A program made the position numbers and the translations under genes. Below the pieces are notes generated by a model that searched no databases, was not told where the DNA came from, and worked only from the letters and a program-made list of their open reading frames with translations. From IMG/VR virus record IMGVR_UViG_3300029456_000117: a DNA stretch of 64,000 bases. One strand, 5' to 3'. Positions 1-28,310 of the stretch are shown here, piece by piece (position 1 is the first letter of the stretch; each line of letters starts with the position of its first letter). Source of the stretch: a virus (lineage: Duplodnaviria > Heunggongvirae > Uroviricota > Caudoviricetes).

Positions 1-266
1 TAAGTCTGTCGCAACATCATTTCCACCAAGTATGTGATAAGGTTCATACATCCTTGTGGCGTTCTCTCGTGCGTATATGGGGCAGTAACCCCTCTCAGAC
101 CACTTATTGTATGTCTGAACGATACCATTTCTTAAAAGAGCTTCTACACCCTTGTCAATGGCTTTGTTTTTTAAGTGCTGATTGTACATCAGCTTCGCCA
201 TCACGCCCATTCCGCTGATTATCAATCCAAAAAGAAACTCGATCCAATATTTCACGATAAAATCTA
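1..266 (-). CDS. hypothetical membrane protein, 3' part truncated by window edge
   Basis: Minus-strand ORF starting with ATG at 266 (MIDFIVKYWIEFLFGLIISGMGVMAKLMYNQ...) and running off the window. The N-terminus is hydrophobic. Confidence 0.3.
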
Positions 267-479
267 TCATTCTTCACGCTCCCGTCTGTATGCTCTCAAA
301 TCATACTCAATTAAATCCATCTTCTGATCCACGTCGTTTTTCATATCATCGAGTTCCTTATGCAGCTCATCCGATATTCTGCACTGCTCAATGATTTCTT
401 CCTGTTTTCGGATGATTTCAAGCATTTGTGTGGTTGCCTCACACAGCCTATCTACAATGACATAACTTCCATCACGCAT
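267..479 (-). CDS. small hypothetical protein downstream of DGR RT
   Basis: 70-aa ORF with a charged, coiled-coil-like sequence. Its start overlaps the RT stop. Confidence 0.3.
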   Translation of the reverse strand: MRDGSYVIVDRLCEATTQMLEIIRKQEEIIEQCRISDELHKELDDMKNDVDQKMDLIEYDLRAYRREREE

Positions 480-1500
480 GACTTTCCTTTAACTCCTTTG
501 CTTCGCAGGTGATCTTCTCCACCAGATTATAGGTATCGGCGTGTTTGATTGAACCAATTCTGCTCGTGAGAGACTTGTCGAAAAATTCTTCTGTGATTGT
601 TCCATTCTTAAAGTTTTTCATAAGACGCTTCAATCTTCGCATAGCATCTTTTCTGATTTTCTTCGTGGAGTTCCAATGCCTATATCCTACAAAATCAACG
701 CCGTTCTTCGCATATACGATTGTTGTCTTTGGATTTAACTGCAATTTCAGAACTTCCGCAAGGAATGTCTCTATCTGTTTCTTCCACCGTTTTAACTGTT
801 CGAGATCATCTGATATAATCAGAAAATCGTCCATATATCTCATGTAATACTTCGCATGAAGAGTATGTTTTACGAACATATCTAAGCGGTGTAAGTATAC
901 ATTAGCAAATAACTGGCTTGTAAGATTTCCAACCGGTATGCCGACACCGTCCGGGAATATCCCATTATGGTCTATTATCCGGTCAAGGATTACGAGTAAG
1001 TCCTTGTCTTTAATGTAGGTTCTAATTTCTCTTTTCAGAACCTTGTGGTCTATGCTCTGGAAGTAATGGTGTATGTCGGCTTTCAACACATAAACTGATT
1101 TGCCTTGCACGACTTCCAGATTATATAACCACCTTGTCAACTGCTTGCTGGCTCTGTGAGCACCTTTCCCCTTTCTGCAAGCGTAGGAATGGTATATGAA
1201 CTGATGCTCAAATATCGGCTCTATATAATTGACAATCATGTGTTGGATAACCCTATCGTAGAACGGCAATGCCATAATTATCCGTTCCTTTGGTTCCCAC
1301 ACTTTGAAAACTTTGTACTTCCCAGGAGTGTATGTCAAACTCTTTAATTCCCGGCGGGCTTTGCTGAGATATTCTTCTCTGTTTGCTTCAAACTCCAAAA
1401 CCTCCGGTCTGTACCTTTTGCACCGCCTCGCCTTTCTGTATGCAAGTAAGGCATTGCTCATGGTACAGATGTTTTTCATAAGACCTGTTATTCTCTTCAT
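472..1500 (-). CDS. diversity-generating retroelement (DGR) reverse transcriptase
   Basis: 342 aa with an RT fold. It has the DGR-specific motif-4 signature IPVGNLTSQ (I/LGxxxSQ, replacing the QGxxxSP of group II introns) and the YMDD catalytic box (YMRYMDDFLI). It lies immediately downstream of a TR/VR pair. Confidence 0.9.
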   Translation of the reverse strand: MKRITGLMKNICTMSNALLAYRKARRCKRYRPEVLEFEANREEYLSKARRELKSLTYTPGKYKVFKVWEPKERIIMALPFYDRVIQHMIVNYIEPIFEHQFIYHSYACRKGKGAHRASKQLTRWLYNLEVVQGKSVYVLKADIHHYFQSIDHKVLKREIRTYIKDKDLLVILDRIIDHNGIFPDGVGIPVGNLTSQLFANVYLHRLDMFVKHTLHAKYYMRYMDDFLIISDDLEQLKRWKKQIETFLAEVLKLQLNPKTTIVYAKNGVDFVGYRHWNSTKKIRKDAMRRLKRLMKNFKNGTITEEFFDKSLTSRIGSIKHADTYNLVEKITCEAKELKESHA

Positions 1501-1667
1501 ATAATCGCTTACGTCACACTTCCTTCGCTTACGCTACTATTTGACTCCGCTGTTTTAAATTTGCCCGATTCGCACGGGACGGGATAGCCGTCTGACTATT
1601 CAATAATGATTATCAAATAATCCTTGTTGGCAAGCCGTAGCTCCACCAATCTGAAAGTTTCTAAATA

Positions 1668-1793
1668 GTCACAGACGCACCAGACGCCAATGTTCGTGTT
1701 CACGTTCCACGGATAATTGTTGCAATTCACAGTCCGCGAACCATCGTGAACCCCGTTGTTCCAGTTGCCACCGCCAATGAGCGCGTGCAAACC
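1668..1793 (-). repeat. DGR template repeat (TR), about 126 bp
   Basis: Near-identical to 2301-2426 (VR). All 12 mismatches sit at TR positions that are T on the plus strand, which is A on the coding (minus) strand. The ORF 1596-1790 is just the TR read in frame, not a gene. Confidence 0.85.
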
Positions 1794-1835
1794 TCGGAGC
1801 GACAGTGCGAATTAACAGCTACCCCAAATAGTTGC

Positions 1836-2234
1836 TTATTTTCGTTTCTCTGCTTGTGCTTTATTTATCAGACCTCCGATGCACGCTCCCATAATTCCTA
1901 TCTGCTCTGCACAATATTCGTAAACTCTATTGTTCATCGCAGAATATCCAAGATCGTGCGCCAATCGGATTTTTCTTACCAATTTTCCTTTCAGCCTGTC
2001 GGCTGTATAAAGATGGCTGATTGTCTTTGACCTCTCGTATGCTTCTATCTCATCCATGATTCCGTCTATACATTCTCGTATATCCTTTTGGAGAGTGAAT
2101 TTCTCATAATGTGGCATTTCTCTCACTTTCTTATGGAGATATACCGATAGGTCGTAGGCCATCTGGTGTGCTTCGGTATGAATGTAATCCATCTTGGTTG
2201 TGGTCTGATTTTCGTATTTGCTCTTGTATGCCAT
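1836..2234 (-). CDS. avd: Avd-like accessory variability determinant (predicted four-helix-bundle protein)
   Basis: 132-aa basic protein sitting exactly between the VR-containing target gene and TR/RT, as in the Bordetella phage BPP-1 cassette. Size and predicted helical character match bAvd and the 23S-rRNA-IVS protein family. Confidence 0.7.
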   Translation of the reverse strand: MAYKSKYENQTTTKMDYIHTEAHQMAYDLSVYLHKKVREMPHYEKFTLQKDIRECIDGIMDEIEAYERSKTISHLYTADRLKGKLVRKIRLAHDLGYSAMNNRVYEYCAEQIGIMGACIGGLINKAQAEKRK

Positions 2235-2261
2235 CTATTACACCCAACCTTTCAACCGCAA

Positions 2262-2285
2262 GGGACTCGGCTTTCGCCGGTCCCC
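2262..2285 (-). other. GC-rich stem-loop immediately 3' of VR (candidate DGR homing hairpin/cruciform)
   Basis: The sequence gggac-tcgg-ctttcg-ccg-gtccc forms an imperfect inverted repeat 16-39 nt downstream of the VR 3' end. The analogous hairpin in BPP-1 enhances mutagenic homing. Confidence 0.45.
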
Positions 2286-2291
2286 ATCAGC

Positions 2292-3395
2292 TTACAGCGA
2301 GTCACAGACGCACCAGACGCCAACGTTCGTGTCCACGTGCCACGGATAATCGCCGCAATACACAGTCCGCGAACCAGCGTGAACCCCGTCGTTCCAGAAG
2401 CCACCGCCAATGAGCGCGAGCAAACCAGTGTTGCTGGCCATGTAAAGCTGGCCAACTTTCTGTCCGCTCATAACGTCATACCAGTTCCATGCTGATCCGG
2501 TAGGGTCGTGAATGAACTCATCAAGCCACTTCCATACGTTTCCAACAAGGTCGCGAACATTCGTTGCGGAAACTGCGTTCTTTACATTTCCGCAGGCGGT
2601 TCTTGCCGTATTGGAAGTTGCGGACCATGCGTAGGTGTTGTTACCATCTTCGCCCTGTGGAGAACCGTATGCGCCTTTGCAGAACTCAGCGTAGGTTGGA
2701 AGTCTCTTTCCTACTCTCATAGCTCTTTCATTGGCGATATACCAGTTTAATCCCTCTGTTCCAGTAATCGGCACAACACCCTTTTTGCTCTGCAAACCAC
2801 TGGCACCATTGTCGGATGAAAGATAGATGTCTCCCCAGAACGGTCCGATATAAACCATTCCGGTAGGATCACAAGTAGGTCTATGGAGAAGAGTCCATAC
2901 AGAGTTAGGAACAATCCCCTCTGTTACGTTTGTTTCCCATCCGCTTCCGAGTGCTGCCCCGGATGCGCTGATCGGAATACCGGAACTATTTGTTTTTCTG
3001 ACTACACCGTAATGGAAGCCACCGATTTTTCTTGATGTAACTGCTGTATAACCGTTTGGATATGTCGTATTAAGGGAAATACGATACTGTTCGGATGCAA
3101 AGTTGGTTGCGTCTCCGCCGGTGGGATCGCAGATATAAATGCAGTAATCTTTTCCGACTTCAAATTTTGAAGCCGTTCCGTCCAGATTGCTTGCTGTGAG
3201 TGTGGTCTTTTCTGTCTTGAAAACAGAATTTCCTACTGCAATCAGAACTCCGGCGATTACAGTAAGTGTTCCGCTCTCCATGCGGATGAATTTCTTATCT
3301 GATGCCACCACATCAGACATGAGGGCAAGTTTGGGAGTGGTTATCTTTGCAATATCATTCTCCATTGCCTCATCATAACCGTAGAATTTACTCAT
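2292..3395 (-). CDS. DGR variable target protein, putative receptor-binding tail fibre with a C-terminal C-type-lectin/FGE-like fold
   Basis: 367 aa. The C-terminal roughly 42 aa are encoded by the VR. The sequence GNVWKWLDEF...GGGFWNDGVHAGSRTVYCGDYPW resembles the FGE-sulfatase/CLec domain (GNVWEW motif) typical of DGR targets. It is the last gene of the tail module. Confidence 0.85.
   Translation of the reverse strand: MSKFYGYDEAMENDIAKITTPKLALMSDVVASDKKFIRMESGTLTVIAGVLIAVGNSVFKTEKTTLTASNLDGTASKFEVGKDYCIYICDPTGGDATNFASEQYRISLNTTYPNGYTAVTSRKIGGFHYGVVRKTNSSGIPISASGAALGSGWETNVTEGIVPNSVWTLLHRPTCDPTGMVYIGPFWGDIYLSSDNGASGLQSKKGVVPITGTEGLNWYIANERAMRVGKRLPTYAEFCKGAYGSPQGEDGNNTYAWSATSNTARTACGNVKNAVSATNVRDLVGNVWKWLDEFIHDPTGSAWNWYDVMSGQKVGQLYMASNTGLLALIGGGFWNDGVHAGSRTVYCGDYPWHVDTNVGVWCVCDSL
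2301..2426 (-). repeat. DGR variable repeat (VR) at the 3' end of the target gene
   Basis: 126 bp, with 114/126 identity to TR. All 12 differences correspond to TR adenines on the coding strand (TR N codons AAC/AAT become F, D, H, Y, V and others in VR). The 21 nt at the 3' end are identical to TR (candidate IMH). Confidence 0.85.
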
Positions 3396-3831
3396 TAGCC
3401 AATTCCTCCTTGATCTGATTCAGTTCTTCGGCTGTCATGCCGAGACTGTCATAAATTGTGTAAGGTGCGGTAACTGCAATTTCCGTGGCTTCGGTAGAAA
3501 CCATAGCGGAAGTGGAGATAATGGTTGTTTCCAACTGGGTATCTCCAGTGTGCTCATCCGGTTCTCCCTCTTCGTGTGTAACATTCGTGATGTTCACAGT
3601 CTTGTTGCCAACGATTGCCTTTGTTCCGGCCTTTGCCTCTGCACAATAGTTGATAGTTACTGTTTTCTTATCCTCTCCTACCGCAAGGATAGGGCAGTGA
3701 AGATAATTCATGTTTTCGAGATCTTCGATGGCTTCTAACAGATCCTTTGCCGCAAATGCGCCATCGTCTACGAGGGTTTTACAGTTTCTAATGTCCTCGG
3801 CGGTTGCAAGTCTCTTAGGGAAATCTCTCAT
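3388..3831 (-). CDS. hypothetical tail-associated protein
   Basis: 147-aa ORF placed between the tail-fibre genes and the DGR target. Confidence 0.4.
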   Translation of the reverse strand: MRDFPKRLATAEDIRNCKTLVDDGAFAAKDLLEAIEDLENMNYLHCPILAVGEDKKTVTINYCAEAKAGTKAIVGNKTVNITNVTHEEGEPDEHTGDTQLETTIISTSAMVSTEATEIAVTAPYTIYDSLGMTAEELNQIKEELANE

Positions 3832-3845
3832 TGTGTCTACCTCCG

Positions 3846-4634
3846 TTATTTATTTACATAGGCTCCTACAAAACCATCGACAAACGCCAATCCGTTGCCG
3901 TCTATGATTCTGAAAGTCTTATGTGTCATAAGATCCGCATTGCTGATAGAAAATGTTTTCGGGGCAACCATATAGTTGTCGTTCGCAATGCTTATTGTGT
4001 ACTCTCCTGCCTCTGTGAGATACAAAGGCTGAGTATAATCTGTAACAGTATATTTGTTACCGGATGTTACATTTTGAACAGTTATTGCAGCAGCAGTTCC
4101 AACGGTATCGTTGAAATGTATCTTCACTGCAAGGTTTCTAATGTGGGTTTCCACATCGTTGATTTCATTCTGCAATTTTCCGGCTGCATCCGCTGACAAC
4201 TGATCTTTAATCATTGAAAACCATTGATTAAACAATATTTCCTGATTGTTCTCAAACGTTGTCATTTCAGATGTGTAGTCTTTCTTTAACTGCACAACAT
4301 CCGCATTTGCCGTTGCTTGCAAATTGTCGAGAAAGATATTGAATGAGTCGAGATCCAGATTTGCTCTCTTGTCAAACTCAACTTTCTGGTTCTCAAAAAA
4401 CTCTGTGAATACCTCATACAAATCTGTTCCGTTTTCCAATGCTGCCATGATTGCATTGACGGCTGTATTGATGCGGTTGGCATCATACGCACCGAAAAAC
4501 GATTCATCATACACCGTATACTGGGTCACATCTTTTACGGAATAACTGCCGTCCCCATTATCAATAGGTATGAACTTCCGCAGACCGGACCATACGGCAT
4601 CCTTGTAGTCTGTCTTTAATCGTTCCCACGCCAC
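3846..4634 (-). CDS. hypothetical tail fibre/structural protein
   Basis: 262-aa ORF in the tail module. Confidence 0.4.
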   Translation of the reverse strand: MAWERLKTDYKDAVWSGLRKFIPIDNGDGSYSVKDVTQYTVYDESFFGAYDANRINTAVNAIMAALENGTDLYEVFTEFFENQKVEFDKRANLDLDSFNIFLDNLQATANADVVQLKKDYTSEMTTFENNQEILFNQWFSMIKDQLSADAAGKLQNEINDVETHIRNLAVKIHFNDTVGTAAAITVQNVTSGNKYTVTDYTQPLYLTEAGEYTISIANDNYMVAPKTFSISNADLMTHKTFRIIDGNGLAFVDGFVGAYVNK

Positions 4635-9010: not shown

Positions 9011-12000
9011 TTACGCTCCTTGGAAGCTGTAACCGTTCGCATTACGCTGTGTGGTTACTGCATCCGTTACTGTCTTGCCGCCAATCTCAACAATCGTCTG
9101 TTCTTTCTTGTCGGCCTGTGTCTTTGTGTTTCTTGAAATATCATTCACAGCGGTTGTGATACCCAGATCATCTAGGGCCTCTTTTATAGCGTCTTTCAGG
9201 CCGCCGCCGGAATTGAGGGTAGCCTGTACAGTTCCTCGTGTGGAAACCTCTCTCGTAACTCTCTGCACAATGGCTTCATTCGTGAAATCACTGCCGTAGT
9301 TGTTCTGGTAATCTTTCAATGCAGCATTGTCGATTTTCAGACGTGTGCCGAGGTTCACTTCCATGTTTGAGAACGAATCCGTCCAGGATGTTACAAATCC
9401 TTTTGTTTTCGCTCCCTCTTTTTCGATTCCCTCGTTATATCCCTCTACGGAATACACACCTAACTGCCGGAATACCCTTGACGGAGAGTTTATATCCAAC
9501 TTGTCCTTGAACCATGAGATAATACTGCTGCCCCATGATTCAATGTTGTTCTTGCAGGTGGAATACAGATTTCCTATACCGTTCTTAAAACCATCTACCA
9601 CATTTTTTGCAATGTCATACCACTTGTCATAAGAACAGGTATTTGTGAACCACGTTTTTACATTAGAAGCCCATGTTGTAATGTTGCTCTTACAAGTCGT
9701 ATAGCTGTTTCCGATTTTCGTTTTGAAGCCGGAAATAATATTCTCTGCATAGGTGCTCCACTTAGAGCTATTGATGCCTCCAAAACCACTATCAGAGAAC
9801 CATGTTTTGAGGTTTGACGCCCATGTTGTGATATTACTTTTCGTATCTGTGTATGACAGTCCGATTTTGTTTCTGAAACCAGTTATGATATTTCCTGCAT
9901 AAGTGGTCCATGTGGCATTGTTGATATTTCCGAATGAAGATCCAGAAAACCAATCTTTCAGGCTACTCGCCCAAGTAGTAATGTTGTTCTTTGTGGTGGT
10001 ATAGGTGTTTCCAACCTTTTCCCGGAAGCCGGAAATGATATTGTTTGCGTAGGTCTGCCAAGTATTGCTATTGATGTTTCCAAAGCCGCTGCTCGTATAC
10101 CATTCCTTAACTTTGCTCGCCCAGGTTGTGATGTTATCTTTTGTGGTGGTGTATGTGTTACCCACCTTTGTTTTGAAACCAGTGATAATATCATTTGCGT
10201 AGGTGGTCCATGTACCGTTATTCACTCCGCCGAATGAAGAACTATTAAACCATTCCTTTGCCTTTGAGGCCCATGTGGTAATGTTGTCCTTGGTCTGTGT
10301 ATAGGCATTTCCCACCTTTGTCTTGAAACCGGAGATAATGTCATTTGCATATCCGGTCCATGTTTCCATGTTGACTCCACCAAATGATGAATTGTTGAAC
10401 CACTCTTTGGCCTTAGTAGCCCAAGTCGTGATGCTGTCTTTTGTGGTGGTGTAAGCATTGCCTATCTTGTCCTTGAAGCCGGTTATGATGTTCTGACCGT
10501 GAGTCTCCCAAGTCTCTTTGCAAATCTTTCCAAAGTTCGTACCTGAGAACCAGTCATTGATCTTTTCAGCCCACTCCGTAACTTTTGCTTGACAGTCTGA
10601 GAATTTCTTCCCGATGCCTCCATTGAAAGCAGTGACAAGATTGCTTCCAAGTGTGCTGAATACGGTTGAATCGGATGAACCACCTATGCCAAATATTCCT
10701 TTGACAACATCCGTCACATTTCCGAAACAACTCAACGCTGTCTGCAATGGTGCTGGCAAAAGGGATTTAGATATTCCACCAAGCAAACCACTGACTATTT
10801 TCTCTCCGACAGTATTTATTTCTCCATCATCAGACCCAATTCCGAACTTCTTTGATATTCCCTCAACAACGCTTGTTTTCAGTTCGTTCCAAATGGCGGT
10901 CCATGATACCCATTTGAACAAATTCTTGAACGTCCACTTGGCTGCAAATACCTTAAATACTGTTTTGAGAATTGTGTCCCAGTCAATCTCGGACATTGCC
11001 GTTCCTACGCCCTTTAGAAGTTCGTACCAATCTACCTCATCTATCAAAGTGTTAATCAGTGTGCATACACCAGTGATGAGGGAATTGATTGTACCTCCTG
11101 CATCTTTCCAGTTGATGGTTTTTACGGCTTTGTTAATTGCACTCGCAAAGTCACTACCGATTTTCTTGAAATCAATCTTTGCAAGGAATTTTCCAATACC
11201 ACTGAAAAGTGTCTTGATACTGTTTCCGAGCGTCGTTCCGACAAGTTCCCAGTCAATGTTTGTGATTGCCGTATTGAGGTTTGAACCAAGTCCAGAACAG
11301 AAACTATCGAAGCCGTCCTTAACTGTTTTCCAGTCGATGTTTTTCAGTGCCGTATTGACACCGCTTGCAAAGTTCTTTGCGATGTCCGTCCACGGAAATG
11401 TCTTTGAGAAATTCAGTACGGCGGTAAATACCCCATTCACGAAACCGGCAAATGTTTCTCCGATTCCGTCATAATCAATTCCGGCGATCGCATTGCCGAG
11501 AAGATTTCCGATTGCAGTTCCAAGTGAAGCCCAGTCCAACCCTTTGACAAATGTTTTTGCAAAAGTGATTGCTGAGTTTATCGTATTGGAAATTGCAGTG
11601 CCGATTTTCTTCCAAAGGTCCTCTGTCTGCAGGGCAGCGTTGATTGCATCAACAATGCCTTGTGCCAACCCCTTTGCAGTCTTATTTATCAGAGTCCAAT
11701 CCAGAGTATCTAATGCGCCTATGATAAGGTTTGCAATGGCTGTTCCAAGACTGCTCCAGTGGAAGTTCTCAACGAATGAATCAACAAACTCAAACGCTGA
11801 GTTGATTGCCTGCGCTATGGTTACTCCGATTTCTGTAAATAATCCCGGGGTTTCAAGGAAACCATTCAGGAATGTGGCGATACTCTTGGCGATCTTTCTC
11901 AGTGTTGCCTTAATTCCATCCCACGGAATGTTTTCGAGAGCTTCTTTTAGCTTCTCTCCGAACATTCTTCCTATCTCTGTGAAATCAGCATCCGCCCATG

Positions 12001-13696
12001 CGTCCTTAACCATTTCCGCAAGGTCTTTGTACTTATCAGCTACCGCATCTGTCTCATATCCGCTTCCATCAGCTCCGCTGTTGCTGCCGCTGCCGCTTTT
12101 ATCGTCACTCAGGATATTAAGCTCATCTATGCCGGTGGTAAGGTTCTTTGCCGCCTTTGCTGCGCTATTTAAGGAATCTGTATAATCTTTGTTCTGTCGT
12201 ATTGCCTTGGTGTAGAACTTCTTGCCTGTAAGTGCTGAGAAGAACTGTGCCAACGCGTTTGTTGCTGCAACGAGCTTCTGAATCAGATAATCCAGAATTG
12301 GAGTAACCACATTCAGGATTGGTTCAAATGCAGTTGTCAGTGATGCTCCAAGCTGACGTAAATCGTTATAAAGAAGATTTACGTTTTTGTGAAACTCTGT
12401 TCCGGCTCTTTTTGAATAAATAACAAGGTTGTCGAATCCTGTTTTTACGAGTTCAAATAGGTGTGTAAACATTGAGCGCAGTAACATGAATGTTCCAAGT
12501 CGGAGGATGGAACCCAGTTTCTTTGCAAACGCTCCACTCTGTTTTTCAGAAAAACCAAGACTCTCTCTGACACGCTTTTTGAGTTCCTTGAATTTGTTTA
12601 TAATTGCAGCAATCCCAGAACGGATTTTATTCACTACCGTTTTCACGGCAGAAATTATTTTTTGCACCTCATTCTTTACGGCATTTGCTACCTGTCTTAC
12701 GGCATTGATAATGGCAGTGAGTATTGTCAGTATGATACCGATAATAGGAATTGCCGACTGTACTGCTTCCAATCCAACTGCCATAGACTGGAATCCGGCA
12801 TTTGCCGCCATGCCCCCGGTTTCAATAGCTGGAAGAATTGATGCAATTCCACTTAATATAGAAGAAAAAGTTCCAAGTCCGCATTTCTGTGCGGCATCCC
12901 CTATGGACTTAATGGACTTTGCCACATCCTCCATATTCTTAGGAGACTGTGAAACTGTTTCCTTGAACTGCTTAAACTGTTCCTGAGCCTGTCTGAGACC
13001 ATTCACAGCTTCCTCATACTGACCGGTATCAAACCGTATCTTCCCACTCTCCATACCGCTAACAGTGGCTTTGTACTTATTGATCTGGTCTATGAGTTCC
13101 TGAATACGTCTATTAGCCGGATTTGTGTTTGCCTGATTGAGACTTTCGTTTAAGTTTGTCTGTCCGGCTGCTGCACTCTGCCCGGCGGTTCCGAGGTTAT
13201 TTTCCTCCTGCGCCAACTGACTTGCCGCTGATGCAGCACTGTTCATTGCTGCCTGTGCCTCTTCTGATGCAGTCGCAACGCTTTCTGTGGCTGCTGCTGC
13301 TTGCTGACCGTTCTCCAAAGGCTGTACACGTCTCTGTGCGCCCTCAGAATCAATTCTGATGCTGACACGGTTATTTGATCCGAGGTTTCCAAGTGCTGTG
13401 CTGACTTCCTTTACGGTAGCCGCAACCTCTTTCAGTTTTGCCGTATCAACTCCTGCCAGAGACTTAATGGATGATGCAATGCTTCTCATACCACTTCCGG
13501 CATTTTTAAGATCATCTCCAACGCCGGAGAAACCACGCATTACATCAAGAATCTGTTTTAACTTTTCTGTATCTAATCCCTCAGTGATTTTCTTCATTGA
13601 GGCAAGAGCTTTTGTTACTTTATCAATACCACCGTCTGCCTTATCAGTGGTGGCTTCTATTTCCAATAAAATGCTATCTACTCTGTTATCAGGCAT
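9011..13696 (-). CDS. tail tape measure protein
   Basis: 1561 aa with N-terminal coiled coil, hydrophobic segments and a tandem repeat block. It lies downstream of the G/GT chaperone pair and the major tail protein. Confidence 0.85.
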   Translation of the reverse strand: MPDNRVDSILLEIEATTDKADGGIDKVTKALASMKKITEGLDTEKLKQILDVMRGFSGVGDDLKNAGSGMRSIASSIKSLAGVDTAKLKEVAATVKEVSTALGNLGSNNRVSIRIDSEGAQRRVQPLENGQQAAAATESVATASEEAQAAMNSAASAASQLAQEENNLGTAGQSAAAGQTNLNESLNQANTNPANRRIQELIDQINKYKATVSGMESGKIRFDTGQYEEAVNGLRQAQEQFKQFKETVSQSPKNMEDVAKSIKSIGDAAQKCGLGTFSSILSGIASILPAIETGGMAANAGFQSMAVGLEAVQSAIPIIGIILTILTAIINAVRQVANAVKNEVQKIISAVKTVVNKIRSGIAAIINKFKELKKRVRESLGFSEKQSGAFAKKLGSILRLGTFMLLRSMFTHLFELVKTGFDNLVIYSKRAGTEFHKNVNLLYNDLRQLGASLTTAFEPILNVVTPILDYLIQKLVAATNALAQFFSALTGKKFYTKAIRQNKDYTDSLNSAAKAAKNLTTGIDELNILSDDKSGSGSNSGADGSGYETDAVADKYKDLAEMVKDAWADADFTEIGRMFGEKLKEALENIPWDGIKATLRKIAKSIATFLNGFLETPGLFTEIGVTIAQAINSAFEFVDSFVENFHWSSLGTAIANLIIGALDTLDWTLINKTAKGLAQGIVDAINAALQTEDLWKKIGTAISNTINSAITFAKTFVKGLDWASLGTAIGNLLGNAIAGIDYDGIGETFAGFVNGVFTAVLNFSKTFPWTDIAKNFASGVNTALKNIDWKTVKDGFDSFCSGLGSNLNTAITNIDWELVGTTLGNSIKTLFSGIGKFLAKIDFKKIGSDFASAINKAVKTINWKDAGGTINSLITGVCTLINTLIDEVDWYELLKGVGTAMSEIDWDTILKTVFKVFAAKWTFKNLFKWVSWTAIWNELKTSVVEGISKKFGIGSDDGEINTVGEKIVSGLLGGISKSLLPAPLQTALSCFGNVTDVVKGIFGIGGSSDSTVFSTLGSNLVTAFNGGIGKKFSDCQAKVTEWAEKINDWFSGTNFGKICKETWETHGQNIITGFKDKIGNAYTTTKDSITTWATKAKEWFNNSSFGGVNMETWTGYANDIISGFKTKVGNAYTQTKDNITTWASKAKEWFNSSSFGGVNNGTWTTYANDIITGFKTKVGNTYTTTKDNITTWASKVKEWYTSSGFGNINSNTWQTYANNIISGFREKVGNTYTTTKNNITTWASSLKDWFSGSSFGNINNATWTTYAGNIITGFRNKIGLSYTDTKSNITTWASNLKTWFSDSGFGGINSSKWSTYAENIISGFKTKIGNSYTTCKSNITTWASNVKTWFTNTCSYDKWYDIAKNVVDGFKNGIGNLYSTCKNNIESWGSSIISWFKDKLDINSPSRVFRQLGVYSVEGYNEGIEKEGAKTKGFVTSWTDSFSNMEVNLGTRLKIDNAALKDYQNNYGSDFTNEAIVQRVTREVSTRGTVQATLNSGGGLKDAIKEALDDLGITTAVNDISRNTKTQADKKEQTIVEIGGKTVTDAVTTQRNANGYSFQGA
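9520..10720 (-). repeat. about 7-8 tandem 150-bp (50-aa) repeats within the tape measure gene
   Basis: Repeated protein unit ITTWASKAKEWFNSSSFGGVNNGTWTTYANDIITGFKTKVGNTYTTTKDN with a matching periodic DNA pattern (cccaNgtNgtRatgYtg...). Coordinates are approximate. Confidence 0.6.
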
Positions 13697-14634: not shown

Positions 14635-15054
14635 TCACGCTGTTACATAACGAAGAGCCTCTTCGCCCTCATCAGTAATGGAGAATGACATTTCTCTCGC
14701 ATTGTTGGAAGATCCGCTTGTCGGATATACTGCCATAACACCGGCCCACTCCCATTTGCCGTCAACACCCTCTTCTCCAAACCATAACTGGTATTTATCA
14801 ACTTTTCCTGCTTCCTGCAGATCCAAGAGTTTCTTGTAATCAGCTTTCTCATACCATGCTTTGAAAGCAAGATCCCCTGTGTCCTCGATACCGTTAATGG
14901 TTCTTTTCTTCGTATCGGAAAGTGTTGTAACATCGAGTTTTTCCTTTTCTCCACCGAGATCCGGGTACTCAGTAATATCGATCAACTTCTCAAATGTTCC
15001 GGGAGCATCTGCTTTCTCGTGCATGAGATATGTCACATTTGTACATTTTGCCAT
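14635..15054 (-). CDS. major tail protein
   Basis: The likely start is the internal Met (MAKCTNVTYLMHEK). About 139 aa, positioned upstream of the chaperones. Confidence 0.55.
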   Translation of the reverse strand: MAKCTNVTYLMHEKADAPGTFEKLIDITEYPDLGGEKEKLDVTTLSDTKKRTINGIEDTGDLAFKAWYEKADYKKLLDLQEAGKVDKYQLWFGEEGVDGKWEWAGVMAVYPTSGSSNNAREMSFSITDEGEEALRYVTA

Positions 15055-15172
15055 CTTCGTTCTACCTCCTTGTGTTTTCCTTTGCCTAAGAGGTAAAGCC
15101 TTGAATTTATTAAAACCACCGGCAGACACCAGGCGAGTGCTTTTCGGGAGCGACCCTAGCCGATGGAGTTAA

Positions 15173-21424: not shown

Positions 21425-21645
21425 AAGAACCGATCAAGTCTACTTATGACTTAACCGGCTCAAAGGCTCTTTGCTTAATTCTATTTTTATTACTTCCTTA
21501 CATCCACGGCAGTTTATAAAAATCGTGCCGGATGCTCCGGGTGCTTTCTTGAAAAGAAGTTTTTCACGGTTTGCCCGCGCCTTACATACAGGGCAGTATA
21601 CGTTTTCCGTTTCCAATATAGCTGCTCCTTTCTGTATGTGGATAG

Positions 21646-21719
21646 TTGCGTGGATGGGATTTGAACCCACGACCGTCTGATTAAAAGTCAGATGCGCTAC
21701 CGAACTGCGCCACCACACA
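21646..21719 (-). tRNA. tRNA-Lys (anticodon UUU)
   Basis: Cloverleaf is TGTGTGG-TG-GCGC/AGTTCGGTA/GCGC-A-TCTGA/CTTTTAA/TCAGA-CGGTC-GTGGG/TTCAAAT/CCCAT-CCACGCA-A. Confidence 0.75.
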
Positions 21720-21789
21720 TTACTGGGCGGCTCACCACCGCCCTATCCTACAATAATGGAGGAACCCATGGCCTCTCGAAAGAGGCAAG

Positions 21790-21862
21790 AGCCGAGAGTG
21801 GGAATCGAACCCACAACCTTTTGATTACAAATCAAATGCTCTGCCAGTTGAGCTATCCGGGC
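21790..21862 (-). tRNA. tRNA-Thr (anticodon UGU)
   Basis: D arm is GCTC/AACTGGCA/GAGC, anticodon arm is TTTGA/TTTGTAA/TCAAA, T arm is GTGGG/TTCGATT/CCCAC. The acceptor has one mismatch. Confidence 0.65.
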
Positions 21863-21864
21863 TT

Positions 21865-22004
21865 ACCAATATGGAGTAGCGTTCACTACTCCATATCAAG
21901 AAAGGGATAATCCACCAACGTCTATACCAAGACACCATCATTTTAACAAAAAAGGAACAACCACGCATTAGAATATCGGTGAAACCGATATTCTAATGCA
22001 GTCA
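21865..22004. terminator. two strong hairpins (candidate bidirectional terminators) between the tRNA pair and accessory genes
   Basis: First hairpin is atatggagtag-cgttca-ctactccatat at about 21866-21893. Second is gcattagaatatcggt-gaa-accgatattctaatgc at about 21968-22004. Confidence 0.4.
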
Positions 22005-22024
22005 TTCCTCGTTAAATGATAAAA

Positions 22025-22249
22025 TTAAAATTTTATGATGTAATTGAGTTCGTTATTATATGTCTTTTGGTTCGTAGTCGATGCAGTAATCATCCCAGGA
22101 TGTGACCGCTCCATAGCAATCACTTTCCTCATTGGCGCATATCCAATCCGTTGTCCCATTAAAATTATCATGCCAAGCACATGATCCGCAATTTCCGTTA
22201 CATTCCATTCTGCATCTCCATCAATCTCTGTGCCTCTTCCGGGCTGCAT
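22025..22249 (-). CDS. hypothetical protein
   Basis: 74-aa ORF. Confidence 0.3.
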   Translation of the reverse strand: MQPGRGTEIDGDAEWNVTEIADHVLGMIILMGQRIGYAPMRKVIAMERSHPGMITASTTNQKTYNNELNYIIKF

Positions 22250-22530
22250 ACCGTCACTCCGGTTTCTTCCTCACACTTCTTTACCATACCGGCTCCGTCC
22301 CCAGCATAGCTTTCCCAAATGTGCTGTGATTCTACGAACACATCATTGATACGCTTATATCCGAATCCATAGGTTCTGTGAAGTGCTATGGCAATCGCAG
22401 CATATATCTGTGGAACCATCTGGTCTGCCGCAGTAGCAACGTTCTGTGAGCGGTTTCTTCTGGCGATTTCATTCAGGGAATTTATCAGTTTGTTATTCTT
22501 CGCCATATCTTTCCTCCAGTGCATCCTCAA
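22198..22530 (-). CDS. hypothetical protein
   Basis: 110-aa ORF. Confidence 0.35.
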   Translation of the reverse strand: MRMHWRKDMAKNNKLINSLNEIARRNRSQNVATAADQMVPQIYAAIAIALHRTYGFGYKRINDVFVESQHIWESYAGDGAGMVKKCEEETGVTVCSPEEAQRLMEMQNGM

Positions 22531-23236
22531 TAATAGAGTCCGTGTAAAGAAATTCTTTCATATCTGCTCCGTAGCAAGACGGCTCGATAGGTTCTCCACC
22601 ATAACAAGCCATTCCATGAGGACATTCAGCGTTTTCAGGACAATATTTGCAATAATCCTCTCCGTCATGTGTTTTCAGCCATTCATCAAGGATTTGTTCG
22701 TCTCGATGCTTTTCAAATACCGCTATTGCATCTGCCAGAAAGTCGGTCTGGGCAAACCATTTCAGATCGTCAATCACTTTCCACGGGTTATCGCCAGATA
22801 CATTCATACAAACTTCATGTAACCTTTCCATTTGATCGCAGTCTTTATATTTTTCCTCTATTTCTGCGATAGGAGATTTTAATGCGTGATAATTGCGAAT
22901 GTGAACATAATTGAAGTATGCCGAGGAATATTCCCCTACTTCATACTCTCCGGGTTCAAATGTGTGGTTTTGCATCACGATCTGCAAAGCAACTGGAAGC
23001 TCGATAATGAGCATTTCGGCTTTTTCAATATCCTCAGCAGCGTATTCTCCACTTTCTTCATCGCAGTGCCATCCCATGATTTCACACACATTCGTTGTGG
23101 GACCGCTGTTCCCGAATGGTCTTTTAACATCTATTACCGGTCTATATCTATCCTTAGAATCTATTAAAATGGAGATTCTAAAATTAAGGTCTGTCATAAT
23201 CTTTATGTGCTCCGGTTTTAATTTAAAACTTGGCAT
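22493..23236 (-). CDS. hypothetical protein (Cys/His-rich)
   Basis: 247-aa ORF. Confidence 0.45.
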   Translation of the reverse strand: MPSFKLKPEHIKIMTDLNFRISILIDSKDRYRPVIDVKRPFGNSGPTTNVCEIMGWHCDEESGEYAAEDIEKAEMLIIELPVALQIVMQNHTFEPGEYEVGEYSSAYFNYVHIRNYHALKSPIAEIEEKYKDCDQMERLHEVCMNVSGDNPWKVIDDLKWFAQTDFLADAIAVFEKHRDEQILDEWLKTHDGEDYCKYCPENAECPHGMACYGGEPIEPSCYGADMKEFLYTDSIIEDALEERYGEE

Positions 23237-23242
23237 ATCAAC

Positions 23243-23557
23243 CTACCTCCGTTTCATTCCTCTGACTGTATGTTTCCTTTTGTTTCCCATAAATCTGCCA
23301 CTTCCCTTTGAACCGCCAAATATGAAAGCGGACATATTTCCGCCGGACGGTTTCTGTGTAGGTGGTGTTTCTGACGGTGCCGGTTTATACTTGGGTCTCC
23401 ATACCATGACAATTTTATTGTCTTTGGGATCCACAAATCCAATACCATTTTCAAAGATAGTAAGATTAAGTCCATGCCGGATGCAGGCCTCTTCGATCTC
23501 TTTCTGCACCTCAACCGCTTTTTTCTGTGCTTCTGTCATTATATCTTCTCCTTTCAT
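23243..23557 (-). CDS. hypothetical protein
   Basis: 104-aa ORF. Confidence 0.4.
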   Translation of the reverse strand: MKGEDIMTEAQKKAVEVQKEIEEACIRHGLNLTIFENGIGFVDPKDNKIVMVWRPKYKPAPSETPPTQKPSGGNMSAFIFGGSKGSGRFMGNKRKHTVRGMKRR

Positions 23558-23581
23558 CGGTCAATCTCACACCTCATCATC

Positions 23582-23896
23582 CTAAACTTTCAGTTTTTCA
23601 ATTTCTTCAAGGACCGTGGTATACTCGGCATTTATAATCTCAATCAGTTTATCTCTGGAATTTTTAATGTTGGCAGCATAGGTTTCCAATATCAATGCCA
23701 TTGTCTTATTTGCCTCTTCCTGACTGAGTAAGGTTGCTGTATCTCTGCCTCCATCTGCGTGAATATAGAGTTTGGCCTGTCCTTGCTGATCCGCATTGTA
23801 TGCTTTCATGCTTTGAATTAACGTAGTTGCCTCTGTACTCACGGAATCTATTGTTCCAAGGTATGATCTGCACATTTCATAATTTGTAGTGTTCAT
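23582..23896 (-). CDS. hypothetical protein
   Basis: 104-aa ORF. Confidence 0.4.
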   Translation of the reverse strand: MNTTNYEMCRSYLGTIDSVSTEATTLIQSMKAYNADQQGQAKLYIHADGGRDTATLLSQEEANKTMALILETYAANIKNSRDKLIEIINAEYTTVLEEIEKLKV

Positions 23897-23932
23897 ATTT
23901 CTGTAAACCTCTTTCCGTCTGCATATCGTCTG

Positions 23933-24136
23933 TCAATAATCGTTTTTTATAAAACCTTTTCGTTGAGCGCAACTCATGCAGTAATTGTATCTGCCGTAAA
24001 TGATTCCTCCGCATCCCCTGCATTTATGTCCTCGCTCTATTGCTTTCCCATACGGTTGTCCTAATGCGTAATAGCATTTCCTGCAGTATGTGTAATGATC
24101 CTGACAATAGCCTCCGCATCTTTGACAAAATGCCAT
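23933..24136 (-). CDS. Cys-rich zinc-ribbon-like small protein
   Basis: 67 aa with several CxxC pairs. Confidence 0.4.
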   Translation of the reverse strand: MAFCQRCGGYCQDHYTYCRKCYYALGQPYGKAIERGHKCRGCGGIIYGRYNYCMSCAQRKGFIKNDY

Positions 24137-24295
24137 TTTTAATTACCATCCTTTCTATCCATCAAACACTGGAAGAATTTTTCAATTTCGTCTTTGAGTT
24201 CTTTTGAATCTGTTTCAAACACAACCTTGTATTCTTTCTTTCTGCTTCCGTCTTTCAGTTCTATATCATCACTATTTGAATACCACGATTTCATA

Positions 24296-24562
24296 TCAGT
24301 TTTCCTCCGAGTATCTAACGCGTTCTGGATTCACTTTCATGGCACACTCCCGGCATATAAATTGATTGGAATGGTTCTTGATAAGGCCAAGATACGGTTT
24401 TTCCTCAGAACCGAATTTATATCCGCACGCAAAGCACTTATCTAATCCTCTATTCTTAACTCCGAGTGACTGTCGGAACATTAGTGTTTCTCCGATTGTA
24501 CTCTGCCACTTGGCGCAATCATAGATTTCATAATTCCTTACGGTTGTTTTTGATATTTTCAT
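24296..24562 (-). CDS. zinc-ribbon small protein
   Basis: 88 aa with CFACGY...CRECAMK. Confidence 0.4.
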   Translation of the reverse strand: MKISKTTVRNYEIYDCAKWQSTIGETLMFRQSLGVKNRGLDKCFACGYKFGSEEKPYLGLIKNHSNQFICRECAMKVNPERVRYSEEN

Positions 24563-24772
24563 CTACCGTCCTAACCTTTCCTGAATGATTTTCTGTCCAT
24601 CTTCACTCTCATAAAACCTTTGAATTGTTCCGAAACAAAACCTCACTCCATCAGGGATCGGCATATAAGTAAGCAGCTCTCCGGTTTCTAATCGCATTTC
24701 GCAGGATTTAATTCCGAAAATCTTTGATTTACACGTCAACTGAAACTTGTGTTTACAGGTCTGTTCTGCCAT
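24563..24772 (-). CDS. hypothetical protein
   Basis: 69-aa ORF. Confidence 0.35.
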   Translation of the reverse strand: MAEQTCKHKFQLTCKSKIFGIKSCEMRLETGELLTYMPIPDGVRFCFGTIQRFYESEDGQKIIQERLGR

Positions 24773-25448
24773 CGTCCTCTCCGATCTCCGAGAACTTCGT
24801 GTATATCCTGTTCTCAGCGTAGTAGATGTTATAATCTTTCTGCCGGATGTAATGCCACAATCCTTTTTCGTGACCGGCTTTCAGAAAATCATGGTTGTAA
24901 TACTCCGTCTCGTACCGCTCATTAACCATCTGCCGGAAACTGAGTTCATCTATCTGGTCTGAGGAATGAACAAAGTCTGAGATCTTGGTAATATCCTCTT
25001 TCGATAATTTCTCTGTTGCCACGAACACAACTCTTACGATTTCCGTTCCGTGTCTCTCCACATATTCCAAATCCTCAACGGATTGCAGATGATACACCAC
25101 TCTTTTGCAGAAATGGTACGGAAACTCCGACTCTGTGTAGCTCGTGTGCATTTCCATTGGAATACCGGCTTTAATGCAGATACCCATAACCATGCCGAGA
25201 TACATAGGCACAAGAGGATTGTCACTATACCGGTAAAGCGGATCTCCACCGCCGGAGATAGATACGATATTCGCTCCGGTCAATGTAATGGCATCCTCCA
25301 ATTTATCCAGACCGTCCACCGTGGATTTCGGCACTTTAATTCCATTCTCCCGGACTATGCAGTAAGGGCATCTGCCGTGGCAACCAAAGTTTGTTATTAC
25401 ACTCAGGTATTTATCCATTGATTGAATCCTCCCATAATTTATCCACAA
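24753..25448 (-). CDS. radical SAM enzyme (NrdG/QueE-like activating enzyme)
   Basis: 231 aa with a CxxxCxxC cluster (GCHGRCPYCIV) and a glycine-rich SAM motif (ISGGGDP). Confidence 0.55.
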   Translation of the reverse strand: MWINYGRIQSMDKYLSVITNFGCHGRCPYCIVRENGIKVPKSTVDGLDKLEDAITLTGANIVSISGGGDPLYRYSDNPLVPMYLGMVMGICIKAGIPMEMHTSYTESEFPYHFCKRVVYHLQSVEDLEYVERHGTEIVRVVFVATEKLSKEDITKISDFVHSSDQIDELSFRQMVNERYETEYYNHDFLKAGHEKGLWHYIRQKDYNIYYAENRIYTKFSEIGEDDGRTDL

Positions 25449-25818: not shown

Positions 25819-25900
25819 ATTCTAATTTTGATTGTTCATTTTCAATTCTCCATAAAAAATAGGTGGTAGTCATTCCGACCGCCACCTACTGTTACACACT

Positions 25901-27352: not shown

Positions 27353-27369
27353 GTTTTCCTACCTTTCCA

Positions 27370-27465: not shown

Positions 27466-27475
27466 CTGTTTCATT

Positions 27476-27803: not shown

Positions 27804-27886
27804 TTCTTTACATGACGCTGTTTCAAACGGGAAAATATTGTCAATGGAATTTTCTGTTTTGAAAGATTGCTGTAAGCGTCACTTAA

Positions 27887-27987: not shown

Positions 27988-27989
27988 CA

Positions 27990-28278: not shown

Positions 28279-28310
28279 CATATTCAGTTTTAATACGGAA
28301 ATCCGTATCA

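What the first reader, a model, noticed from the sequence alone, without database searches (positions are those of the whole stretch)
472..3395. Complete phage DGR with strict adenine-specific TR-to-VR mutagenesis, diversifying a C-lectin-fold tail fibre
The cassette is in canonical order target(VR)-avd-TR-RT on the minus strand. TR (1668-1793) and VR (2301-2426) are 126 bp with 12 mismatches. Every mismatch is at a TR adenine on the coding strand. For example, TR ..NWNNGVHDGSRTVNCNNYPWNVNTNIGVWCV.. becomes VR ..FWNDGVHAGSRTVYCGDYPWHVDTNVGVWCV... The RT has the DGR-specific IGNLTSQ-type motif and YMDD. The target C-terminus looks like an FGE/CLec ligand-binding fold. This indicates an active tropism-switching system on the last gene of the tail module.
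Basis: partly seen in the sequence, partly recalled or inferred. Interest (0 to 1): 0.8.

Follow-up and report, generated by a model that had tools for sequence, protein, structure and literature searches.

The report
Canonical phage DGR diversifying Mtd-like tail protein
This is a complete and evidently active diversity-generating retroelement of the classic Bordetella-phage type, sitting at the end of the tail genes of a Lachnospiraceae (gut Clostridia) prophage, where it rewrites the receptor-binding tip protein; it is a textbook example, not a new kind of system.

Summary
On the minus strand lie an Mtd-like target gene (2292-3395) with VR 2300-2426, a GC hairpin with a GAAA loop (2262-2284), avd (1836-2234), TR (1667-1793), a 166-nt spacer and the RT (472-1500). 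TR and VR are 127 nt long, one base more than reported. All 12 mismatches fall on the 27 TR adenines (P = 8e-10).

In 32 closely related loci plus the window, TRs are nearly constant (7 variants) and VRs nearly all differ (31 variants). Substitution is 47% at TR-adenine positions and 0.3% elsewhere.

- The RT is a full-length homologue of Bordetella bRT (PDB 8ub7, E = 1e-52).
- The target is a full-length homologue of Mtd in sequence and in predicted fold.
- An Avd profile finds only BPP-1 Avd in the PDB.
- The RNA around TR carries covarying counterparts of the BPP-1 priming and stop elements. These predict a priming adenosine at 1593, which explains why the last TR adenine (1669) never varies.

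A 95% identical copy lies inside a Diplocloster hominis isolate genome, so the phage occurs as a prophage. This is a new member of a well-known kind, of low novelty.

The parts
2292..3395 (-). Target gene, 367 aa: Mtd-like receptor-binding protein (N-terminal adaptor, Mtd second domain, C-type-lectin/FGE-like domain)
   Evidence: Pfam mtd_2nd 1.2e-28 and FGE-sulfatase 5e-6. phrog_11262 tail protein 3.9e-68. phmmer to Mtd 1yu4 at 3.2e-16 over residues 34-367. AlphaFold model pLDDT 91.7, Foldseek to 1yu4 E = 1.5e-23, TM 0.70.
2300..2426 (-). Variable repeat (VR), encoding residues 324-365 at the C-terminus of the target
   Evidence: 127-nt repeat of TR with 12 mismatches, all at TR adenines. 31 different VRs in 33 genomes.
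2262..2284 (-). GC-rich hairpin/cruciform with GAAA loop and one bulged A, 15 nt after the VR: the target-recognition element
   Evidence: Predicted in both the MFE and the centroid fold. The stems differ by compensatory changes in three clades, while the GAAA loop and the bulged A are invariant. It fits the 7-10 bp GC stem, GRNA loop and 4-34 bp distance described in PMC3240598.
1836..2234 (-). avd, accessory variability determinant, 132 aa
   Evidence: Pfam bAvd 2e-9 (38.3 bits, curated cut-off 40). NCBIfam DivGenRetAVD 7.7e-12 (45.5 bits, cut-off 80). phrog_3206 'Avd protein of DGR' 1.1e-11. A family profile hits only BPP-1 Avd in the PDB: 4dwl 6.3e-7 and 8ub7_B 3.9e-6.
1814..1826 (-). Upstream strand of the long-range duplex that brackets TR (counterpart of the BPP-1 avd:Sp 'cPRT Stop' duplex)
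   Evidence: Pairs with 1580-1592 (duplexfold -20.9 kcal/mol). 99.3% of cells are paired and 3 pairs show compensatory changes across clades, against 37-54% paired when slid.
1667..1793 (-). Template repeat (TR), 27 adenines, non-coding in its own context
   Evidence: Only 7 TR variants in 33 genomes.
1627..1649 (-). Stem-loop with UACG tetraloop just downstream of TR (candidate Avd-binding stem-loop)
   Evidence: RNAalifold helix, with 6 pairs keeping pairing through changes on both sides. Position and type are as described for DGR RNAs in 10.1101/2023.10.23.563531.
1593..1599 (-). Spacer segment AUAGUCA complementary to the TR 3' end UGACUAU (1665-1671). Predicted priming adenosine A1593, followed by G1592
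   Evidence: The AGUCAGA motif is invariant in all three clades. The complementarity is read directly from the sequence. It is analogous to BPP-1 Sp A56/G57. It explains the invariance of TR A1669 in VRs.
1580..1592 (-). Spacer strand of the long-range duplex, followed by the stem-loop CCCG-UGCGAAU-CGGG (1564-1578) and an A-rich run (1551-1563)
   Evidence: The layout matches the cPRT Stop of duplex, stem-loop and adenosines.
1501..1666 (-). Spacer (Sp) between TR and the RT gene, part of the DGR RNA
   Evidence: Conserved motifs CAAGG, AGUCAGA, CCCG, AGUA and GCGAA across RT clades of 56-99% identity.
472..1500 (-). DGR reverse transcriptase, 342 aa
   Evidence: RVT_1 7e-23. bRT 8ub7_A E = 1.4e-52 over residues 2-327. 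The bRT motifs LKSDF, RYMDD, EPKPRLISAL and GSLTSQ align to LKADI, RYMDD, EPKERIIMAL and GNLTSQ here, and bRT IPIG aligns to IPVG, so I181 is V by my numbering.

Best explanation
This is a canonical, currently active diversity-generating retroelement (DGR) of the Bordetella phage BPP-1 type, carried by a siphovirus-like prophage of Lachnospiraceae.

The inferred mechanism follows BPP-1.
1. An RNA spanning the avd 3' flank, TR and the spacer is bound by the RT-Avd complex.
2. The spacer folds back so that AUAGUCA (1599-1593) pairs with the TR 3' end.
3. The 2'-OH of A1593 primes cDNA synthesis, starting opposite G1672.
4. The RT copies TR faithfully except at adenines, where it inserts random nucleotides.
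5. Synthesis stops at the duplex formed by 1814-1826 with 1580-1592.
6. The cDNA replaces VR in the target gene, guided by the adenine-free 3' homology block and the GAAA hairpin downstream of VR.

The result is variation at 17 codons (up to about 2.5e15 protein variants by my arithmetic) on the ligand-binding face of an Mtd-like C-type-lectin domain. This lets the phage population keep or change its receptor specificity.

What is shown: the anatomy, the homologies, adenine-specific variation across genomes, and covariation of the DNA hairpin and the RNA duplexes. What is inferred: the chemistry of priming, the homing step and the biological role.
For: - Adenine specificity in the window: 12 of 12 mismatches at TR adenines, P = 8e-10.
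- Population evidence: in 33 genomes of the same phage clade there are 7 TRs and 31 VRs. Over the 31 distinct VRs, 391 of 836 cells at TR-A positions are substituted against 10 of 3101 elsewhere, an odds ratio of 272. The spectrum at TR-A positions is A 53%, G 29%, T 10%, C 8%.
- Protein level: 17 of 18 TR-A codons are multi-allelic, with up to 7 residues in 14 sequences. Only 18 of the other 349 positions vary, mostly with two alleles.
- The two 90%-identity clusters of the target hold 9648 and 3535 distinct sequences.
- The only adenine that never varies (A1669, Asp365) lies 3' of the predicted initiation site (sequence).
- RT matches bRT at E = 1.4e-52. The Avd profile finds BPP-1 Avd only. 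The target matches Mtd by sequence and by fold.
- The hairpin covaries and keeps an invariant GAAA loop, and matches PMC3240598.
- The upstream:spacer duplex is 99.3% paired with 3 compensatory pairs.
- More distant relatives (56-64% RT identity) have the same architecture and adenine-biased TR/VR pairs.
- A 95% identical RT with a 17/17 adenine-specific TR/VR pair lies inside a 355-kb contig of the Diplocloster hominis CSJ-3 isolate genome.
Against: - No read-level or experimental data: activity is inferred from differences between assemblies, not seen within one population.
- Avd scores fall below the curated cut-offs of Pfam and NCBIfam as a single sequence, and it has no phmmer hit in the PDB.
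- 10 of 401 TR/VR mismatches over the distinct VRs are not at adenines. These could be ordinary mutations or assembly errors.
- The spacer RNA as a whole is not more stable than shuffles (z = -0.84), and RNAalifold recovered only part of the structure.
- The priming site is assigned by analogy with BPP-1, and its duplex is invariant, so it has no covariation support.
- For the duplex count, an inserted hairpin was removed by hand from three clade-B rows.
- The receptor and the host-range effect are unknown.
Confidence: 0.93

Rival explanations
1. The DGR is active, but its role is not host-range 'switching'. It continuously tracks variable surface receptors (glycans or proteins) within one host species, or it serves the lysogen while the phage is integrated. 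It would then be a bet-hedging device rather than a switch.
For: Every one of 31 distinct VRs differs, with no recurrent 'states'. PMC8144416 concludes that DGRs mostly maintain high standing diversity rather than being triggered. The element occurs as an integrated prophage.
Against: This is not a rival mechanism, only a different reading of the benefit. The Mtd precedent is tropism switching. No data here discriminate between the two.
Confidence: 0.2
2. The cassette is a decayed relic. The TR/VR differences were laid down in the past and the element no longer mutates its target.
For: The window alone gives only one TR/VR pair. Some relatives do show damage: L034 has a roughly 325-nt insertion in TR and L018 has adenine substitutions in TR itself.
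Against: All ORFs are intact, and the bRT active-site and template-contact motifs align to matching motifs in the RT. VR differs in nearly every genome of a clade whose RT is 94-99% identical and whose TR is nearly constant. All cis elements are conserved with compensatory changes.
Confidence: 0.03
3. The repeat is an ordinary duplication or gene-conversion tract, and the RT belongs to another system (group II intron, retron or an antiviral RT).
For: The best NCBIfam hit of the RT is the group II intron RT/maturase model, followed by Drt and retron models. All of these fall below their cut-offs.
Against: That library returned no DGR RT family. The PDB comparison puts bRT far ahead of group II RTs (181.9 against 69.9 bits). 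The adenine specificity has P = 8e-10 in the window and 4e-284 across genomes. Avd, the GAAA hairpin and the Mtd-like target are all present.
Confidence: 0.01

Closest known systems
Bordetella phage BPP-1 DGR (mtd-avd-TR-brt)
   Same: - Same gene order.
- RT, Avd and target are all homologous to bRT, Avd (Bbp7) and Mtd.
- VR lies at the C-terminus in a C-type-lectin fold.
- TR is rich in AAY codons.
- A GC hairpin with a GAAA loop lies downstream of VR.
- The spacer carries a primer segment ending in A-G, and a duplex between the region upstream of TR and the spacer is followed by a stem-loop and adenosines.
   Different: - The host is a Gram-positive gut Lachnospiraceae rather than Bordetella.
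- The first ~35 residues of the target do not align to Mtd, whose own first ~64 residues are unmatched.
- Avd is very divergent and is found only by a profile.
- The hairpin has a conserved bulged A and starts 15 nt after VR.
- The predicted priming A is at spacer position 74, against Sp A56 in BPP-1.
- The upstream duplex strand lies in the avd-TR intergenic region, not inside avd.
Prophage DGRs of gut Firmicutes (E. rectale prophage in Fig. 5 of PMC3240598; Faecalibacterium prophages, PMC11792537; viral DGR clades with tail-protein targets in PMC8144416)
   Same: Gut Clostridia prophages with DGRs aimed at tail proteins that have C-lectin VR domains. tblastn hits of the RT include 15 Faecalibacterium phage records and Clostridium phage Saumur.
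   Different: No cultured or GenBank phage is closer than 44% (RT) or 47% (terminase), and there is no DNA-level match in 50,697 phage records. Near-identical genomes exist only as IMG/VR contigs and as one prophage in D. hominis.
Other structurally characterised DGR variable proteins (TaqVP 5vf4, TvpA 2y3c) and formylglycine-generating enzymes
   Same: They share the C-type-lectin/FGE fold of the VR-bearing domain.
   Different: They match much more weakly (TM 0.25-0.36 against 0.70 for Mtd). They lack the Mtd second domain and are not phage tail proteins.

Membership tests
Diversity-generating retroelement (DGR) | Reverse transcriptase of the DGR type, with the catalytic YxDD and the [I/V]GxxxSQ motif in place of the group II QGxxxSP | tested here: met
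   bRT (8ub7) E = 1.4e-52 over the full length. VGNLTSQ and YMDD are present. The bRT motifs containing D138, D215/216, R74, I76, F66, K29, G182 and Q187 align to matching motifs here (residue mapping by my own numbering), and I181 aligns to V. Placement within the numbered DGR RT clades was not tested.
Diversity-generating retroelement (DGR) | TR/VR near-repeat whose differences fall at TR adenines | tested here: met
   12/12 in the window, P = 8e-10. 391 of 401 across 31 distinct VRs.
Diversity-generating retroelement (DGR) | VR inside the 3' end of a protein-coding target, in a C-type-lectin-type fold | tested here: met
   VR encodes residues 324-365 of 367. FGE-sulfatase domain found, homology to Mtd, and a fold match at TM 0.70.
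Diversity-generating retroelement (DGR) | Accessory protein (Avd or HRDC) next to TR | tested here: met
   As a single sequence it is below the curated cut-offs (38.3/40 and 45.5/80 bits) and has no PDB phmmer hit. A 15-member family profile hits only BPP-1 Avd (4dwl 6.3e-7), and the PHROG 'Avd protein of DGR' scores 1.1e-11.
Diversity-generating retroelement (DGR) | Target-recognition elements: an A-free GC-rich 3' homology block and a GC hairpin with a GRNA loop downstream of VR | tested here: met
   A 19-nt adenine-free block at the TR/VR 3' end. A hairpin of 9 bp plus a bulge with a GAAA loop, 15 nt from VR, with compensatory stem changes in three clades. Function in homing cannot be tested here.
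Diversity-generating retroelement (DGR) | DGR RNA elements for cis-priming and termination (primer:template duplex, upstream:spacer duplex, Avd-binding stem-loop) | tested here: met
   compared. The primer duplex itself is invariant, so it is supported by conservation and by the invariance of A1669, not by covariation.
Diversity-generating retroelement (DGR) | Ongoing mutagenic retrohoming | not testable with these tools
   Only indirect evidence: 31 VRs against 7 TRs among near-identical genomes, and thousands of distinct sequences in the 90% clusters. This needs reads or an experiment.
Mtd (major tropism determinant) family of phage receptor-binding proteins | Mtd second (beta-sandwich) domain followed by a C-type-lectin domain with the VR at the C-terminus | tested here: met
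   mtd_2nd 1.2e-28 against cut-off 24.6. FGE-sulfatase 26.8 bits against cut-off 23.3. The alignment to 1yu4 covers residues 65-378 of Mtd. Foldseek TM 0.70.
Mtd (major tropism determinant) family of phage receptor-binding proteins | Trimeric protein at the tips of tail fibres that binds the host receptor | not testable with these tools
   Only the gene position supports this. It is the last structural gene after the tape measure, Dit-like, 748-aa and Ig-like proteins, and its start overlaps the end of the upstream 147-aa ORF by 8 nt.

The most novel reading that the evidence does not exclude
Nothing in the window departs from the canonical DGR. The most novel reading the evidence leaves open concerns the lineage.

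In one relative (L034) the TR is interrupted by a roughly 325-nt non-coding insert. The insert is strongly structured (z = -4.4) and has group-I-like boundaries, with the exon ending in U and the insert ending in G. It matches no Rfam family. That locus's VR still shows a 12/13 adenine-specific relation to the re-joined TR. If the insert were a self-splicing element removed from the DGR RNA, it would be an intron living inside a retroelement's template.

A smaller point: the predicted priming adenosine (A1593) and the stop duplex would extend the BPP-1 cis-priming mechanism to Gram-positive gut phages. The isolate D. hominis CSJ-3 carries the prophage and could serve as a test system.
Probability: 0.1. 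Interest if true: 0.55.

Novelty: new member of a known kind. Interest (0 to 1): 0.2.

Why it matters
The finding matters mainly as a clean, well-documented example. It shows that the full BPP-1 toolkit is conserved, with compensatory changes, in prophages of gut Lachnospiraceae. That toolkit comprises the RT, Avd, the Mtd-like target, the GAAA hairpin, the cis-priming spacer and the stop duplex.

The analysis also gives concrete, testable coordinates: priming A1593, first template base G1672, and the stop duplex 1814-1826 with 1580-1592. A near-identical prophage sits in a cultured isolate (Diplocloster hominis CSJ-3), so the system could be studied experimentally in a Gram-positive gut anaerobe.

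It does not open a new question. Tens of thousands of DGRs, many of them in gut phages and aimed at tail proteins, are already catalogued (PMC8144416).

Tried and rejected
- Megablast of the first 6 kb against 50,697 GenBank phage records found no match. The phage is known only from metagenomic contigs and one prophage.
- Rfam at gathering threshold found no family for the DGR region. It reported only tRNAs and an int-alpA hit elsewhere in the window.
- Folding the whole TR-spacer RNA gave z = -0.84, which is not informative. RNAalifold on a MAFFT alignment recovered only two helices. The long-range duplex had to be found with duplexfold and then counted on a hand-anchored alignment.
- phmmer of Avd against the PDB found nothing. 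This was solved with a family profile built from ORFs of the fetched loci.
- A scan for a second, remote VR, using TR with adenines as wildcards on both strands, found none.
- The L034 insert had no Rfam hit at E <= 1 or E <= 10. A 30-nt probe found no other copy in IMG/VR.
- A Ro60 relationship for the 483-aa DUF2828/VWA protein was checked by PDB phmmer and not supported.
- Considered and rejected: group II intron, retron or defence RT; chance repeat; inactive relic.
Full report
**Observation.** I read the minus strand of 1-4200 and compared the two repeat copies base by base. TR is 1667-1793 and VR is 2300-2426. This is also the only long two-copy repeat of its kind in the window (family D3).
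- There are exactly 12 mismatches, and every one is an A in TR. TR has 27 A in 127 nt, so the chance that 12 random mismatches all fall on adenines is 8.1e-10.
- All 27 TR adenines sit at codon positions 1 or 2 in the VR reading frame. Nine codons are AAY, the arrangement that maximises amino-acid diversity without creating stop codons.
- A scan of both strands of the whole window, with TR adenines treated as wildcards, found no further VR.

**The proteins.** All three proteins are homologous to the three proteins of the prototype DGR.
- RT: the 342-aa ORF 472-1500 is a reverse transcriptase (RVT_1, 7e-23). Its best solved relative by far is the Bordetella phage BPP-1 DGR enzyme bRT (8ub7_A, E = 1.4e-52, residues 2-327 against 3-316). 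Group II intron RTs follow at 1.6e-18. The bRT sequence motifs that contain the residues named in the cryo-EM study align to matching motifs here: LKSDF/LKADI, RYMDD/RYMDD, EPKPRLISAL/EPKERIIMAL and GSLTSQ/GNLTSQ. By my numbering from that alignment, D138, D215/D216, R74, I76, F66, K29, G182 and Q187 are conserved and I181 is V.
- Avd: the 132-aa ORF 1836-2234 matches three independent Avd models (Pfam bAvd 2e-9, NCBIfam DivGenRetAVD 7.7e-12, PHROG 'Avd protein of DGR' 1.1e-11). It falls below the two curated cut-offs and has no phmmer hit in the PDB. The only two hits were BPP-1 Avd, 4dwl at 6.3e-7 and 8ub7_B at 3.9e-6, over nearly the whole length.
- Target: the 367-aa ORF 2292-3395 has the Pfam 'Mtd second domain' (1.2e-28) and FGE-sulfatase (5e-6, above the cut-off). 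It aligns to the crystal-structure sequences of Mtd over residues 34-367 (3.2e-16), with its VR lying on Mtd's VR. A model built from 44 homologues (pLDDT 91.7, pTM 0.88) finds the five Mtd structures first (E about 1e-23, TM 0.70). Other DGR variable proteins and formylglycine-generating enzymes follow far behind.

**Context.** The genes upstream of the target on the minus strand are large terminase, portal, major head, neck, major tail, a 1561-aa tape measure, a Dit-like protein, a 748-aa protein, an Ig-like protein and three small ORFs. The Mtd-like gene comes next, followed by the DGR and then small ORFs.

**Test in relatives.**
- A scan of IMG/VR with the RT gave 80 loci. Thirty-two of them, with RT 94-99% identical to the window's, hold a complete TR and VR.
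- Together with the window there are 7 different TRs and 31 different VRs. Twenty-six of the 27 TR-adenine positions are polymorphic in VR, usually with three or four bases.
- Over the 31 distinct VRs, 391 of 836 cells at TR-A positions are substituted (47%), against 10 of 3101 at other positions (0.3%). The odds ratio is 272 and Fisher's P is 4e-284. The cells are not fully independent.
- The spectrum at TR-A positions is A 53%, G 29%, T 10%, C 8%.
- At the protein level, in 14 full-length sequences from an independent collection, 17 of the 18 TR-A codons carry up to seven residues. Only 18 of the other 349 positions vary, mostly with two alleles.
- The two 90%-identity clusters of this protein hold 9648 and 3535 distinct sequences, which is what a hypervariable tip produces.
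- More distant relatives (56-64% RT identity) have the same cassette with adenine-biased TR/VR pairs.

**Cis elements.**
- Hairpin downstream of VR: fifteen nucleotides after VR lies GGGAC-CGGC-GAAA-GCCG-A-GTCCC (2262-2284). In the two more distant clades the stems read GGCGG-CGGC/GCCG-A-CCGCC and CGGC-GGGC/GCCC-A-GCCG. Several pairs have therefore changed on both sides, while the GAAA loop and the bulged A stay fixed. This is the hairpin/cruciform shown to be needed for BPP-1 retrohoming. That element has a 7-10 bp GC stem and a GRNA loop, lies 4-34 bp from VR, and its stem structure matters but its stem sequence does not (PMC3240598).
- Stem-loop after TR: the spacer between TR and the RT gene has invariant motifs (CAAGG, AGUCAGA, CCCG, AGUA, GCGAA) across all clades. 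I compared it with the cryo-EM description of the BPP-1 RNA (10.1101/2023.10.23.563531). A stem-loop with a UACG tetraloop lies just after TR (1627-1649). Six of its pairs keep pairing through double changes, as expected of the Avd-binding stem-loop.
- Priming site: the invariant AUAGUCA (1599-1593) is complementary to UGACUAU (1671-1665) at the TR 3' end, and the next base is G (1592). This mirrors BPP-1 Sp A56/G57. It predicts that A1593 primes and that G1672 is the first template base.
- Check on the priming prediction: the one TR adenine 3' of that point (A1669, in Asp365) should never be mutagenised. It is the only TR adenine that is invariant in all 33 VRs and all 14 proteins.
- Stop duplex: the 13 nt after the primer segment (1592-1580) pair with 1814-1826, just upstream of TR. 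In an alignment of 11 distinct versions, 99.3% of cells pair and three pairs show changes on both sides, while slid registers give 37-54%. An inserted hairpin was removed by hand from the three clade-B rows. A short stem-loop and an A-rich run follow, as in the BPP-1 'cPRT Stop'.
- The priming chemistry itself is inference by analogy.

**Host and distribution.** A scan of one genome per GTDB species found a 95% identical RT inside a 355-kb contig of the isolate Diplocloster hominis CSJ-3. Its TR/VR pair has 17/17 mismatches at adenines. The phage therefore occurs as a prophage of a Lachnospiraceae. The more distant relatives lie overwhelmingly in Lachnospiraceae and other Clostridia genomes and MAGs. 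GenBank phages have nothing close: no DNA match, RT at most 44% identical (Bacillus phage BalMu-1 is the best hit, Clostridium phage Saumur is 41%), and terminase at most 47%.

**Comparison with what is known, and novelty.** Every defining feature of a DGR that could be tested was met. The target is a member of the Mtd family by sequence and by fold.
- Differences from BPP-1 are of degree only: a Gram-positive host, a different N-terminal adaptor on the target, a very divergent Avd, a bulged hairpin, and slightly different positions for the RNA elements.
- DGRs aimed at tail proteins with C-lectin VR domains are well documented and enriched in Firmicutes and the human gut (PMC8144416). Prophage DGRs of gut Clostridia have been described (PMC3240598 Fig. 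5; PMC11792537). Conservation of the RNA elements across 207 DGRs has already been proposed.
- This is therefore a new member of a known kind.

**Unresolved side observations.** Two relatives have odd TRs.
- In L018 the TR copy itself carries nine substitutions, all at adenine positions and partly shared with its VR. This is most simply an assembly chimera or TR/VR recombination.
- In L034 the TR is split by a roughly 325-nt non-coding insert. The insert is strongly structured (z = -4.4), has U|...G| boundaries, and has no Rfam match and no other copy in IMG/VR. The re-joined TR still relates to the VR by 12/13 adenine mismatches. Whether it is a self-splicing element is open.
- Other things seen in the window are listed separately.

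Noticed in passing
L034:5447-5771 (IMGVR_UViG_3300045988_038234): In this relative the TR is interrupted by a roughly 325-nt insert with no ORF. It folds far better than shuffles (z = -4.4). The exon ends in U and the insert ends in G. It has no Rfam hit even at E <= 10 and no other copy in IMG/VR by a 30-nt probe. The re-joined TR differs from the locus's VR at 12/13 adenine positions. It may be an unclassified self-splicing or mobile RNA element inside a DGR template.
   Followed up: partly
L018:5705-5831: The TR copy of this relative has only 18 adenines. Nine positions that are A in the clade's TR are substituted, several identically to its own VR. This is either an assembly chimera of TR and VR reads or TR/VR recombination.
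   Followed up: partly
window 27991-28109, 28160-28279, 28312-28432 (minus strand): Three tandem tRNA-like genes of about 120 nt (Rfam tRNA, 40-44 bits) each carry an extra stretch of about 45 nt in the anticodon region and share motifs. ARAGORN does not call them. They lie next to a 483-aa DUF2828 + DUF7788 + VWA protein (25901-27352; PHROG 'RNA-binding protein'). They could be intron-bearing tRNAs or a Y-RNA/Ro-like module. PDB phmmer gave no Ro60 hit.
   Followed up: partly
window 21645-32876 (minus strand): There is an array of 13 tRNA genes between the terminase and portal regions. One of them, called by ARAGORN at 30556-30629, has a four-base anticodon (acca) and Rfam does not report it. 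It could be a frameshift-suppressor-like tRNA or a false call.
   Followed up: no
window 15099-15166 (minus strand): An Rfam int-alpA sRNA match (43.8 bits, gathering score 35.8) lies just upstream of, and overlaps the start of, the major tail protein ORF 14635-15129.
   Followed up: no
window 9646-10489: Six tandem 150-nt (50-aa) repeats, 61-73% identical to one another, lie inside the 1561-aa tape measure gene 9011-13696.
   Followed up: no
window 44000-54000: GC and AT skew change sign, and the long ORFs switch to the plus strand, between about 45.7 and 54 kb. This is a divergently transcribed module in an otherwise minus-strand genome.
   Followed up: no
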